In this document: piece by piece, positions 27,601-35,523 of the stretch
How positions within the stretch are numbered: the stretch's first letter is position 1
Layout of the letters: the number at the start of each line of letters is the position of its first letter
Source: Eledone cirrhosa
Taxonomy: Eukaryota
Reading direction: 5' to 3'
Length of the DNA: 64,000 nucleotides
Assembly (NCBI GenBank): GCA_964016885.1
Contig: OZ024743.1
Coordinates: 317,812,001-317,876,000, forward strand
Translations under genes and position numbers: made by a program
Notes under the pieces: model-generated
What the model saw: the letters and a program-made list of their open reading frames with translations, nothing else
Databases searched by the model: none
Told to the model about the DNA's origin: nothing

Positions 27601-27815
27601 TATGTATATATATATATATATATATATGTAGATAAATCTACCAAGAGTTTACGGTAGTGTCCAATCCGTATGAAGAACTCAATGTATTCCGGATATCATG
27701 GAAAGAAGAGATGTAATGAAAAATCACTTTCGGTGAAAGATAAACGGTATACAGAGTCAAGATAAAATATTAAACAAATAATGAATAAACAATTCCTTAT
27801 ATTAAACAAAAAAAG

Positions 27816-27970
27816 TTCATTATTTAACGATCGTTTCTAGGATATATATGTGTTAGAATTGGTATGCATATTCAACAGATCTATGTACAAAATTATACAA
27901 AATTATACAAATTATCAAGATTAAATATACATACCAAACACATATATACGCCGTCTTCAGAAATAATGAA
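27816..27970 (-). ncRNA. Type I hammerhead ribozyme with ~116-nt stem II (sense copy)
   Basis: Reverse complement of 35230-35384. Confidence 0.8.
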
Positions 27971-28686
27971 GTATATTTATTGATAATAACAACAATTCAA
28001 AATTTCAGGTCCGTTTGGGAACAAAAATTGACCAATGAAAACACAAAGGGTTAAATGCAGTTCGGTGTGTGTATATACATGTAAAACCCTTACACATATT
28101 TTACAAAAATGTATGTATAATTTGTATACGCATACTAAAAAGATGGATGCAAATACAAAATTTCAAGGTTAATGTCTCTGTAAATTTATAATGTACAGAT
28201 AAGATGCGTATTGATACTTATGAAATTAAGTATACAAATATATTTTTTCATACTCACACATATCCGTACAATCACACATACACGCGCGTATATGCATAAA
28301 TATACACATAACCACGAACATACAAACACACACACACACCCCCACTCACATTTATATATGTGGATATAAAATCATAAGCACATGGATATTAATTCACTCA
28401 CATAAAACACTGGCACACACATTTTTAGATCAAGATACAGAAATTAGGTGGGAGGGGGGGGGGTCAGTATTCAACGGTCTGAGCAGACTGCCTATTATAG
28501 ATGTATCTATAAACTAAGAAAAATAAAAAAAAAAAAAAATAAAAAAAAATAAAAAAATAAAAAAATAAAATATAATAAATAAACATTAAAGAGGAAAGAA
28601 TAGAAAGAAAAACAGAAAAAAGAAAAAAGAAAAAAGAAAAAAGAAATATATCAAGAAAATAAATATATATATATATACACATATAT

Positions 28687-28729
<43 letters not shown>

Positions 28730-28929
28730 TATACATATATATAAATATACATATATATACACATAGACACACACACACCCATACATAAATATACACACAT
28801 ATACAAACACATACATACATATACACACATTCACACTATGAACATACATACACACACATATATAAATATATACATATACACGCATACATACATATACACA
28901 TATACACACAAATACACATACATATATAT

Positions 28930-28984
<55 letters not shown>

Positions 28985-29302
28985 TATGTGTGTACATACA
29001 CGTACATATACACACACATATACATATAATCACACATACTATATAGACACAGATATATATAACCACACGCATACATGCACATATACAACACTTACATACT
29101 AATATACATACAGATATACACATACATAGCTATATATACACACAAATATATACAGACTTACATATATACATACAGACAAATACTTACGCATCTATATATC
29201 GGTATATACATACAAACACCACTACACTATCACACAACTTAGAAATACAAAGAGAAAGGTATATACCTATACACACATACATATACAAATAGAAAAACAT
29301 AT

Positions 29303-29341
<39 letters not shown>

Positions 29342-29367
29342 TATACATATACATATATATATATAAC

Positions 29368-29398
<31 letters not shown>

Positions 29399-29649
29399 CA
29401 AATACACATACACACACATACAGATATATACACATACATACATGTACACACACATAGAAATATTTACGCATACACACATACACACATACATATAAAGTCA
29501 TACCCACACATACACCTACACGAACATACACATACACATATATAAAGATATATATACACACACACACACACACACAACACATACACACATACACATATAT
29601 ATAAAAAATAAATAATAAAGATATATACATATATATATACACACATACA

Positions 29650-29691
<42 letters not shown>

Positions 29692-30067
29692 CACATACAC
29701 CTAAAAATATACATACACATACATACACACATACATAGACATACATGTACATACATACACATACATCGATATACATATATATATATATATACATACATAG
29801 ACATATACATACAAACACACACAACTTACATACACACATATATATACATGTATATTCATACATAGAATTAGATATATAATCATACATACATATGCATTTA
29901 CTTATACTCATATATACAAATACATACGCATCCATATATGCGTATATACATAAAAAACCACTACAACCTCACCTAACTCAGACATACAAATAAAAATAAT
30001 AATAAAAAGGCATATGTATATACATACACACACGCATTAATAGAGATATATATCTACACATACATAT

Positions 30068-30135
<68 letters not shown>

Positions 30136-32222: not shown

Positions 32223-33767
32223 TTAATTAGGTTTATAATATTTAAATGTTTTTTTTAGTTTATGATTACACGATATAATTAATTCCTGTCGTTTATTTAA
32301 TAAGATATCCTTAGACTTCATTATTTCAAATAGTTCTTGGGAACATAATCTACATTCATTTCTATTATTTTGATAAGGGGTGGCTCTTTTGAGCACACTC
32401 CAGGTCAAATCATATTTTATATTCTTATTTTTATAACTATTGATTTTTTCTGCTAGAGATGTTGTATTAGCCAGTGCGGCATTTTTAAAACTATGCTTGT
32501 GGGTATTAAACCTTGTCTTAAAATTGTTAGAGGTAGCTCCTATATATGAGCAAATAGAATCTTTAGTTTTAACATTACATTTATAGACTATGTTGTTAAC
32601 AAGACAATTCCCTTTTAATGGGCAGTTTGCTTTGTTTCTACAGTTACATCCTTTCGTTAATTCTGTATTTGAGGAGATATTATGGTTAATTTGATGTACT
32701 GGTGGTATACTTATGGTTTTCTTACATTTATATGCATTATATGCACTAATATTTTGTTTTATGTTATTTGTTGTAGAGTATGAGAATTTAACTGTAGACC
32801 TATTTAAGATTTGATGGTATTTGTGGTTTGGCGGGAAGTTTTTCTCAAGGATATAAAAAAATTTTTTAGCAATATTATCCTTAACTTGTAAATTAAAAGG
32901 AGCATTATACCAAGTAACCCGTCTATTACGGTTTCTATGTTGTTTATTATTTTTATTATTTTTATAGGTTGTATCGTGATTTTTACTAGGAGGATTAATG
33001 TTAATGATTTCACCACAACTATTTTTAGTTATATTTGTAGATTTAGGTGTTTTATCCTTTTTATTAGGAGTTTTATTATTAATATTTATTAGAGTTGTAT
33101 GATGAGTAGTTTTTTGAGAGTTACTATACTTTATATTAGAAGATTTGGTATTTTGGGGTATAGTGTGGGTGGCATTTAGGTGTGTACTTTTCATTTGGTG
33201 TTTGTTGGTAATATTATGTTGTATGCTTTCAGTATTTTTAGTAGAAGGTATATACTCTAATCTATTTTTGTGGCCACTTCTATCTAGAGCTTCGTTATAG
33301 AAGGTCGCATTTTTATCAAATACATCTTGGTTAGAAGAAAGGTTAGAAATTCTAAGTGATATATTATATGCAAGGTTTTTAAGGATAGATTTAGGGTGAT
33401 TAGATTGTGAGTGTATGTAATGTAAGTTTTGGTTAGGTTTATGGTAAGGTTGGTAGATACCCGTAGCTAAATCTAAAGTTATATCTAGGAAATTTACTAC
33501 TTTACTTGTTTTTTCAAAAGTAATATTAAGATTATAATAGTCTTTAAGGAAAGTTCTAATATGTTTTTTGTTTTTTTCAATTTCTGAAAGGCTAAGGTTG
33601 TTAGAAAGAAGAAGACAGTCATCACGATATAAACCACCTTTGAGGTGGGGAAAAGAGGCATTTATGTTGAAAAGGAGAAAGAGGCCCACAAGATCAGTAA
33701 TTTGGGCGGAATCGCTTGAACCCATAGTAATATCAAAAAGATTACTGTATGTGTTTCTGGTCCAGAA
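32223..33767 (-). pseudogene. Naiad-type RT (motif B onward) + GIY-YIG endonuclease, uninterrupted but 5'-truncated
   Basis: ORF track 32223..33725; frame continues ([16 protein letters not shown]) to the inversion junction at 33767. Confidence 0.88.
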
Positions 33768-33791
33768 TGTATGTGTGTGTATGTGTATTTG

Positions 33792-33829
<38 letters not shown>

Positions 33830-33852
33830 ATATATATATATGTATATGTATA

Positions 33853-33928
<76 letters not shown>

Positions 33929-34239
33929 TTTCTATTTGTATATGTATGTGTGTATAGGTATATACCTTTCTCTTTGTATTTCTAAGTTGTGTGATAGTGT
34001 AGTGGTGTTTGTATGTATATACCGATATATAGATGCGTAAGTATTTGTCTGTATGTATATATGTAAGTCTGTATATATTTGTGTGTATATATAGCTATGT
34101 ATGTGTATATCTGTATGTATATTAGTATGTAAGTGTTGTATATGTGCATGTATGCGTGTGGTTATATATATCTGTGTCTATATAGTATGTGTGATTATAT
34201 GTATATGTGTGTGTATATGTACGTGTATGTACACACATA

Positions 34240-34294
<55 letters not shown>

Positions 34295-34494
34295 ATATAT
34301 ATGTATGTGTATTTGTGTGTATATGTGTATATGTATGTATGCGTGTATATGTATATATTTATATATGTGTGTGTATGTATGTTCATAGTGTGAATGTGTG
34401 TATATGTATGTATGTGTTTGTATATGTGTGTATATTTATGTATGGGTGTGTGTGTGTCTATGTGTATATATATGTATATTTATATATATGTATA

Positions 34495-34535
<41 letters not shown>

Positions 34536-35229
34536 ATATATGTGTATATATATATATATTTATTTTCTTGATATATTTCTTTTTTCTTTTTTCCTTTTTC
34601 TTTTTTCTGTTTTTCTTTCTATTCTTTCCTCTTTAATGTTTATTTATTATATTTTATTTTTTTATTTTTTTATTTTTCTTAGTTTATAGATACATCTATA
34701 ATAGGCAGTCTGCTCAGACCGTTGAATACTGACCCCTCCCCCCCCCTCCCACCTAATTTCTGTATCTTGATCTAAAAATGTGTGTGCCAGTGTTTTATGT
34801 GAGTGAATTAATATCCATGTGCTTATGATTTTATATCCACATATATAAATGTGAGTGGGGGTGTGTGTGTGTGTTTGTATGTTCGTGGTTATGTGTATAT
34901 TTATGCATATACGCGCGTGTATGTGTGATTGTACGGATATGTGTGAGTATGAAAAAATATATTTGTATACTTAATTTCATAAGTATCAATACGCATCTTA
35001 TCTGTACATTATAAATTTACAGAGACATTAACCTTGAAATTTTGTATTTGCATCCATCTTTTTAGTATGCGTATACAAATTATACATACATTTTTGTAAA
35101 ATATGTGTAAGGGTTTTACATGTATATACACACACCGAACTGCATTTAACCCTTTGTGTTTTCATTGGTCAATTTTTGTTCCCAAACGGACCTGAAATTT
35201 TGAATTGTTGTTATTATCAATAAATATAC

Positions 35230-35384
35230 TTCATTATTTCTGAAGACGGCGTATATATGTGTTTGGTATGTATATTTAATCTTGATAATTTGTATAATTT
35301 TGTATAATTTTGTACATAGATCTGTTGAATATGCATACCAATTCTAACACATATATATCCTAGAAACGATCGTTAAATAATGAA
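35230..35384 (+). ncRNA. Type I hammerhead ribozyme with ~116-nt stem II (inverted copy)
   Basis: TTCATTATTT-CTGAAGA-[116-nt hairpin]-GAAA-CGATCG-TT-AAATAATGAA; perfect 10-bp stem I. Confidence 0.8.
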
Positions 35385-35429
35385 CTTTTTTTGTTTAATA
35401 TAAGGAATTGTTTATTCATTATTTGTTTA

Positions 35430-35523
<94 letters not shown>

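What the first reader, a model, noticed from the sequence alone, without database searches (positions are those of the whole stretch)
27630..35438. Kilobases of microsatellite-like sequence are part of a retroelement, duplicated as a 1.66-kb inverted arm
Seen: the Naiad ORF ends at 32223 but its hammerhead lies about 4.3 kb downstream, across interrupted CA/TA low-complexity sequence. 27762-29422 reappears inverted at 33768-35438, directly at the RT truncation point. The interruptions match and the differences are mostly in run lengths. Inference: this low-complexity DNA is a very long 3' UTR/pseudo-LTR that is reverse-transcribed, so the element spreads cryptic microsatellites and can form a long dsRNA or foldback.
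Basis: partly seen in the sequence, partly recalled or inferred. Interest (0 to 1): 0.7.

Follow-up and report, generated by a model that had tools for sequence, protein, structure and literature searches.

The report
Hydra retroelement carrying microsatellite-filled tail
This is a young, cut-short copy of a known kind of jumping gene (Hydra-type Penelope element, not Naiad) whose copies across the genome share an unusually long tail with about 2.3 kb of TA/TG repeats; the mirror-image arm beside it is the usual way such elements land, and the family likely supplies only a percent or two of the genome's repeats of this kind.

Summary
The sequence observation holds; the clade name does not. The ORF has its endonuclease at the C-terminus with Hydra motifs, so this is a Hydra-clade Penelope-like element, not a Naiad. 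The 4.4-kb stretch from stop codon to hammerhead belongs to the element: 40 of 40 fetched relatives carry it (38 measurable: 3.6–5.3 kb), and its divergence tracks the ORF/UTR tree. About 2.3 kb of it is cryptic TA/TG microsatellite. Published Hydra families are 1.1–3.0 kb in all; this monomer is 7.1 kb. The 1.66-kb inverted arm is the textbook 5'-truncated inverted copy, with the tail on one end only; 21 of 39 other loci have one. Runs in the tract vary in length between copies, and other elements have landed in them (6 insertions seen). The family's share of the genome's alternating repeats is roughly 1–2%, extrapolated from 76 kb. Long dsRNA from the two arms needs host read-through, which is untested; the UG-rich tract is predicted to fold on its own. 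Two other Hydra-like families here also have long UG-polarised tails. The scan noted long-tailed Hydra elements on other DNA of this genome before (e1-9549668, e1-9511766). New variant of a known kind.

The parts
32223..33765 (-). 5'-truncated Hydra-clade PLE ORF: RT from motif 4/B through YRDD and thumb, a 119-aa N/K/T-rich linker, CxCX5C, C-terminal GIY-YIG-type endonuclease with CxxC and CxH. It is the last about 515 of 813 aa of full copies.
30961..32222 (-). Proximal 3' UTR, AT-rich unique sequence with a TA/TG islet at 31639-31760
28659..30960 (-). Cryptic microsatellite tract of the 3' UTR; 74% purine/pyrimidine-alternating; TA/TG on the sense strand (T 1120, A 649, G 455, C 78)
28510..28658 (-). 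Pyrimidine-rich run ending in TT(T/C)ATAG, present in all 23 subfamily representatives; looks like a splice acceptor, untested
27971..28509 (-). Distal unique 3' UTR
27816..27970 (-). Type I hammerhead with about 120-nt stem II; predicted cut 27826|27825. Position 27967 is where short family copies begin (likely RNA 5' end, inferred).
27762..27815 (-). End of the pLTR; 27762 is the short 3' end
27630..27761 (-). 132-nt tail, which is the start of the next unit's 5' UTR in full copies; present on this end only, then (TA)n target
33766..33767 (.). 2-nt filler at the inversion junction, matching neither partner
33768..35438 (+). Inverted 5'-truncated copy (part of tract, distal UTR, hammerhead at 35230-35384, short 3' end) running into (TA)n

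Best explanation
A young insertion of a Hydra-clade Penelope-like retroelement into (TA)n, whose 4.4-kb 3' UTR carries about 2.3 kb of cryptic TA/TG microsatellite shared with its relatives, likely made by two reverse-transcription events joined head to head. Inferred mechanism: the endonuclease cuts (TA)n; RT starts at the two internal sites 132 nt apart behind the hammerhead; one cDNA ran 6.1 kb through the tract and stopped inside RT, the other stopped after 1.66 kb. The tract likely grows by slippage and shrinks by deletion along one master lineage, as tolerated cargo. Its runs vary in length between copies and serve as occasional landing sites, but they likely form only 1-2% of such repeats in the genome.
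For: Shown: 40 of 40 loci picked by ORF similarity carry the tract; 38 measured at 3.6-5.3 kb, median 4.27 kb; one is split by a 3.2-kb insertion and one is truncated inside the UTR. 26 of 26 measurable copies picked by a proximal-UTR motif carry 1.1-2.0 kb of alternating sequence (6 rows ran off the fetched edge). ORF, proximal UTR and distal UTR give the same ladder tree, and tract k-mer distance follows it (Spearman 0.96, 2080 non-independent pairs of 65 copies). All 38 measured 3' ends run into (TA)n or the next tandem unit; 37 use one of the two fixed ends. 21 of 39 other loci have an inverted piece at the 5' end, starting at varied points, several inside the tract. Sister copies on other contigs differ from the left arm by 1-5 substitutions and have 4.33-4.38 kb UTRs. 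Orthologous runs vary, e.g. 9-41 units. Six nested insertions in five copies, one from the same family. Known: inverted 5'-truncated copy and one-sided tail (PMC8557442); two internal RT start sites make the tail (PMC11167929).
Against: No read bridges this locus's inversion junction (skipped 33764-33797). No RNA run was listed, so transcription of the tract is inferred from insertion anatomy only. Run-length differences may partly be sequencing or assembly error. The first 40 loci were top hits and some are two halves of one insertion. Genome shares rest on 61 ends and 76 kb of background. No target-site duplication can be read in (TA)n.
Confidence: 0.85

Rival explanations
1. The tract is a spliceosomal intron in the 3' UTR, removed from the mRNA but kept in the reverse-transcribed template, as PLEs are known to keep introns; this would explain why it can grow freely.
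For: All 23 subfamily representatives, outgroup included, have a pyrimidine run ending TT(T/C)ATAG at the tract's 3' edge; 22 of 23 have TTT|GTAAG at its 5' edge. Acceptor- or donor-like sites are visible by eye in other families. Intron retention in PLEs: PMC8557442, passages.
Against: The window copy lacks the GTAAG. Donor-like words are frequent throughout the tract. The flanking bases are as conserved as the AG. None of the 67 copies collected lacks the tract (UTRs 2.6-5.3 kb), though the anchors used would miss a spliced copy. No RNA data.
Confidence: 0.15
2. The tract is functional: UG polarity is kept because a (U-purine)n RNA folds on itself through U-A and U-G pairs, compacting the template or engaging dsRNA-binding proteins.
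For: Sense RNA folds at -192 to -232 kcal/mol per 575 nt, 80-85% paired, helices to 56 bp; antisense -63 to -79; base shuffles about -95. Three long-tailed families are all UG on the sense strand (G/(G+C) 0.88-0.96). T<->C changes are rarer on transmitted branches (5 of 85) than on tips (34 of 179), p = 0.005.
Against: The folding follows mechanically from alternation. Three families agreeing is p = 0.25 by chance, and host tracts are also each polarised. The same purine-over-pyrimidine transition excess appears in unique UTR (87:43 internal, 51:44 tips, p = 0.05), which points to mutation bias. Lineages that lost 0.8-1 kb of tract went on transposing. Published Hydra families have UTRs of about 50-150 nt.
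Confidence: 0.2
3. A-to-I editing of (UA)n hairpins, fixed by RT at each cycle, turns TA into TG and so builds the tract.
For: A>G exceeds T>C on internal branches of unique UTR (52:28, p = 0.0002) and among shared minor alleles in alternating UTR sequence (81:8).
Against: G>A is raised as much (35:15 over C>T). With tree polarity the tract shows A>G 22 against G>A 32 on internal branches. Internal against tip A>G:T>C is not significant (p = 0.22 and 0.08).
Confidence: 0.08
4. The inverted arm is an assembly artefact or a later DNA-level duplication.
For: Arms are nearly identical; the junction is not bridged by reads.
Against: The arm ends exactly at the family's alternative 3' end, lacks the tail, starts at the RT truncation with a 2-nt filler, and runs into (TA)n. 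The same layout occurs at 21 of 39 other loci. Contigs of two other runs show the head-to-head junction of short copies at 27967.
Confidence: 0.04

Closest known systems
Hydra clade of C-terminal EN+ Penelope-like elements (Craig et al. 2021, PMC8557442; parts 1-4 of 10 of the text, passages, and parts of the supplement seen)
   Same: Single ORF with RW(K/R), DKT, CxCX5C, no CCHH, CxxC and CxH; type I hammerhead at the 3' end; (TA)n target; inverted 5'-truncated copy (noted for Penelope-13_HM).
   Different: Monomer 7.1 kb against 1.1-3.0 kb for the 27 listed families; stop-to-hammerhead 4.3 kb against about 50-150 nt in three consensi read by eye; stem II about 120 nt (listed motifs 80-100 nt in all); tail 132 nt against 30-40 nt; 119-aa linker against a median of 25 in 53 homologues.
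Naiad clade (same paper)
   Same: (TA)n preference, tandem and inverted insertions, tail.
   Different: Naiads have an N-terminal endonuclease, DKA and CCHH, and lack canonical hammerheads; none of this fits.
Adineta vaga Pen1-Pen4 (Arkhipova et al. 2013, PMC3846280, passages seen)
   Same: Inverted pLTRs with palindromic junctions, one-sided tail, a long spacer before the 3' pLTR (Pen1, 0.9-1.5 kb), N-rich ORF inserts.
   Different: Pen1 spacers are captured host DNA that differs between copies; here the spacer is inherited along the lineage and is microsatellite.
Microsatellite seeding by retrotransposons (snake CR1-L3/Rex, PMC6050309; L1/Alu, PMC3812793; passages seen)
   Same: A retroelement copies microsatellites to new loci.
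   Different: Those are 3'-terminal repeats or short internal seeds, and in snakes a dominant source. Here the tract is internal and kilobases long, most copies are too short to include it, and the share is small.
Poseidon PAc internal initiation (Frangieh et al. 2024, PMC11167929, parts 1-2 of 4 read)
   Same: Two fixed 3' ends define the tail.
   Different: Different clade; the start sites here lie in the 5' UTR, 132 nt apart; not tested biochemically.

Membership tests
Hydra-clade PLE | C-terminal GIY-YIG endonuclease, single ORF | tested here: met
   813-aa ORF in L033 and six other full copies with the YIG motif near the C-terminus. Pfam gave no GIY-YIG or RT hit, so the call rests on motifs and on likeness by eye to published Hydra proteins.
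Hydra-clade PLE | RWK and DKT motifs in the N-terminal part | tested here: met
   RVRWRA (RWR, as in Hydra-1_Crog) and SDKTG; RW[KR] in 61 and DK[TS] in 86 of 96 homologues of 600 aa or more.
Hydra-clade PLE | CxCX5C linker; CCHH absent; CxxC and CxH around E and N | tested here: met
   CNCRNKANC; no cysteine pair between the GIY- and YIG-equivalent motifs; CRLC and CNH.
Hydra-clade PLE | Canonical hammerhead near the 3' end; (TA)n insertion | tested here: met
   Self-cleavage itself was not tested.
Hydra-clade PLE | Generally short (<3 kb), a descriptive trait | tested here: not met
   Monomer 7111 nt in L033 against 1080-3045 nt. This is the variant feature.
Hydra-clade PLE | RT phylogeny groups with reference Hydra proteins | not tested
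   Reference proteins were seen only as supplement text and were not held as sequences.
Naiad | N-terminal GIY-YIG endonuclease | tested here: not met
   Endonuclease is C-terminal; full-length N-terminus seen.
Naiad | DKA motif, CCHH finger, no canonical hammerhead | tested here: not met
   DKT, no CCHH, hammerhead present.
EN+ PLE insertion anatomy | Inverted 5'-truncated copy at the 5' end; tail on one end only | tested here: met
PLE retained intron | Spliced RNA junctions at GT-AG bounds | not testable with these tools
   No RNA holder listed; motif look only.

The most novel reading that the evidence does not exclude
Hydra elements in this genome have repeatedly grown multi-kilobase (U-purine)n tails that fold into long wobble-paired dsRNA, or are retained introns. 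A strand-biased mutation process of the RNA phase sets their UG polarity, and the tails together act as a mobile nursery of microsatellites and landing pads for TA-targeting elements, their own kin included.
Probability: 0.2. Interest if true: 0.6.

Novelty: new variant of a known kind. Interest (0 to 1): 0.32.

Why it matters
It corrects the label (Hydra, not Naiad) and more than doubles the known size range of Hydra elements. Practically, kilobases that repeat-masking would call simple repeats are element sequence, so automated consensi likely split such families, and microsatellite markers inside them are multi-locus. It shows that a PLE RT copies through more than 2 kb of predicted folded UA/UG repeats. 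The ladder of dated subfamilies gives a clean system for watching microsatellites grow and shrink. It does not explain the genome's microsatellite load: the share is small.

Tried and rejected
Rfam at gathering score: no hit. Pfam on the full ORF: only a sub-threshold DUF hit. No RNA holder listed; this is no evidence on expression. Directional A-to-I drive was tested and not supported. A self-BLAST for higher-order repeat units in the tract found none, although similar islands recur by eye. The hammerhead pattern fired on nothing, even a known motif, so its blanks are void; the rewritten one still missed two families. The run-length part crashed and was redone. The extent estimate timed out; one search undercounted older subfamilies and was redone. 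L105 (chimeric) was dropped from the rooted tree and L083 used only as UTR outgroup. Paper searches showed no description of a microsatellite-filled multi-kb 3' UTR in a Hydra PLE; the library lacks most subscription journals and Repbase/Dfam entries, so absence from print is not shown. PMC3124438 lists shrimp Penelope consensi up to 7.6 kb (passages), so long PLEs as such are known. PMC13282606 (passages), PMC2377424 (passages) and bioRxiv 10.64898/2026.07.22.740005 (part 1 of 5) added nothing specific on the tract. Whether the locus lies in a host transcript was not determined.
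Full report
Observation. The window holds a minus-strand ORF ending at 32223 and an inverted repeat, 27762-29422 against 33768-35438. The arms differ by three substitutions and five indels, all in or beside simple runs; with runs collapsed there is no mismatch in 1261 columns. ORF homology to a natural full copy ends at 33765, two filler bases follow, and the arm starts at 33768. A type I hammerhead lies at 27816-27970 on the minus strand: 10-bp stem I, CUGAAGA core, a stem II of about 120 nt, a palindromic stem III (z = -6.7; Rfam misses it). 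It is 4.4 kb behind the stop. About 2.3 kb of that (28659-30960) is 74% purine/pyrimidine-alternating; the rest is mostly AT-rich unique sequence.

Clade. Craig et al. (PMC8557442) define Naiads by an N-terminal endonuclease and no canonical hammerhead, and Hydra by a C-terminal endonuclease, RWK, DKT, CxCX5C, no CCHH, CxxC/CxH, a hammerhead and (TA)n targets. Full copies in this genome encode 813 aa with RWR, DKT, CNCRNKANC, CRLC and CNH and resemble the published Hydra proteins by eye. The element is Hydra. I built no tree with reference proteins. The 27 listed Hydra families are 1080-3045 nt, with about 50-150 nt from stop to hammerhead in three consensi read by eye. The monomer here is 7111 nt.

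Is the tract part of the element? A search with the ORF and the first 440 nt of UTR gave 40 scored places at 99-100% identity among 2776 candidates, the window being one. I fetched the 39 others and one neighbouring partial hit. All 40 carry the tract: 38 have stop-to-hammerhead distances of 3.6-5.3 kb, median 4.27 kb; L069 is split by a 3.2-kb insertion; L070 is truncated inside the UTR. Against the window copy, substitutions are 0.4% in the ORF (33 copies with an exact anchor) and 2.8% in the tract, with 10 indel events per kb. Copies picked by a proximal-UTR motif belong to other subfamilies; 26 of 26 measurable ones hold 1.1-2.0 kb of alternating sequence, and 6 further rows ran off the fetched edge. 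Older subfamilies hold it too. ORF, proximal UTR and distal UTR give one ladder-shaped tree (20-21 representatives), and tract k-mer distance follows it (Spearman 0.96; 65 copies, pairs not independent). UTR length rises from 3.3 to 4.4 kb along the ladder and drops by deletion in later branches. The 3' ends are fixed at two sites 132 nt apart and run into (TA)n; the extra 132 nt are the start of the next unit's 5' UTR. This matches the two internal RT start sites shown for PAc (PMC11167929). So the tract is inherited with the element. That it is reverse-transcribed is inferred from this anatomy; no RNA run was listed.

The inverted arm. Of 39 other loci, 21 have an inverted family piece at the 5' end, 12 reach the unit start behind a tandem 3' part, and 6 have neither, one for lack of fetched sequence (some loci are halves of one insertion). 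Here the tail is on the left end only. This is the layout drawn for PLEs in general and noted for the Hydra family Penelope-13_HM. Sister copies on other contigs differ from the left arm by 1-5 substitutions, so arm identity fits one event but does not prove it. No read bridged the junction, yet an assembly error would not be expected to stop at the family's second 3' end.

Does it spread microsatellites? Each UTR holds a median of 22 perfect dinucleotide runs of six or more units; orthologous runs vary, for example 9-41 units (some of this may be read error). Exact motif counts in the genome: hammerhead 6745, mid-tract 415, proximal UTR 876. In a position-ordered sample of 61 ends, 18 reach the tract and 11 extend 2.5 kb or more. 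This gives about 2.4-3.5 Mb, 0.1% of the genome and 1-2% of alternating sequence if the local density (5.8% in 76 kb) is typical. Six foreign or nested insertions sit in TA runs of the tract in five copies: L069, L048, L063, L094 and two in L105, one of them a short copy of the same family. They were found in passing among about 70 copies, so this is a floor. The tract does provide landing sites, but few next to what the host already has.

dsRNA. A transcript through both arms would form a 1.66-kb duplex. The element's likely start sites lie near the outer ends and point outward (inferred and from PMC2377424 passages), so this needs host read-through, which I could not test. Separately, the sense tract is almost purely (U-purine)n and is predicted to fold on itself: -192 to -232 kcal/mol per 575 nt against -63 to -79 for antisense. 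This follows mechanically from G-U pairing.

Beyond this family. A search with a distant homologue found four other Hydra-like families. Two have long alternating tails (hammerhead 1.6-2.2 kb behind the stop in 6 copies; 2.9-3.9 kb in 5 copies) and two have tails of about 1.0-1.3 kb. The long tails are all UG on the sense strand. On transmitted branches purine transitions outnumber pyrimidine ones (unique UTR 87:43 against 51:44 on tips, p = 0.05; tract T<->C 5 of 85 against 34 of 179, p = 0.005). Such a bias would turn TA into TG rather than CA on the sense strand. It runs both ways (A>G and G>A), so directional A-to-I drive is not supported. A pyrimidine run ending in ATAG closes the tract in 23 of 23 representatives; with known intron retention in PLEs, a retained intron remains a minor, untested reading.

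Side result. Half of the hammerhead ends are stubs: 44 of 88 are short, and 41 of these begin within 8 nt of the core, often as head-to-head pairs, scattered among long copies on the tree. 1730 copies begin exactly 7 nt before the core, and 29 of the first 100 have a G in front. An independent run shows the depth step at 27967. This suggests the RNA starts there; it is inferred, and the scan noted it before.

Earlier scan notes describe long-tailed Hydra elements and the stubs on other DNA of this genome. My reading was set before I saw them. I agree on the clade, the cargo and the lack of A>G drive; I add direct cases of insertions into the tract.

Verdict. A real feature, a known kind of element and a known insertion pattern. 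The new part is the size and make-up of the 3' UTR. Interest 0.32.

Noticed in passing
window 27967 equivalent; L071-L110, L131-L150: Half of the family's hammerhead ends are 205/340-nt stubs that start 4-8 nt before CUGAAGA, at an initiator-like TCATT (consensus recalled), often head to head, some with an extra G or reiterated junction repeats (L072, L085); likely copies of the RNA's 5' end.
   Followed up: partly
window 32870-33240 (-): The ORF has a 119-aa N/K/T-rich linker where 51 of 53 homologues have 21-32 aa; recalls the N-rich inserts of Adineta Penelope.
   Followed up: partly
L211-L214, L219-L222, L227, L229, L230: Two other Hydra-like families have 1.6-3.9 kb UG-polarised low-complexity 3' UTRs.
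   Followed up: partly
L063, L105, L048: A roughly 600-nt element ending next to (AT)n sits in TA runs of the tract in two copies; a related-looking end closes a 907-nt insertion in L048.
   Followed up: no
window 43554-45781 (-), 1712-2569 (-), 24165-26282 (+): Other PLE-type remnants with RT and C-terminal GIY-YIG pieces (Pfam RVT_1 and GIY-YIG); the RT piece at 44276-45778 is only distantly related to the Hydra element.
   Followed up: no
window 55605-56462 (-): Single-frame TLC-domain ORF (Pfam TRAM_LAG1_CLN8, E = 1e-19); a host gene or retrocopy.
   Followed up: no
window 60180-60745 and 63301-63866: 566-nt inverted repeat at 99% around fragments of an RT-like ORF.
   Followed up: no
window 4797-8222 (-), 12906-16360 (+), 18714-23438 (+): LINE-type remnants with RT and, in the two plus-strand ones, endonuclease-like frames (types judged by eye).
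   Followed up: no
G000:C1:126.84-126.86 Mb and 183.74-183.76 Mb: Runs of four proximal-UTR motif hits in one direction at 6.5-6.9 kb spacing, suggesting tandem arrays of family monomers.
   Followed up: no
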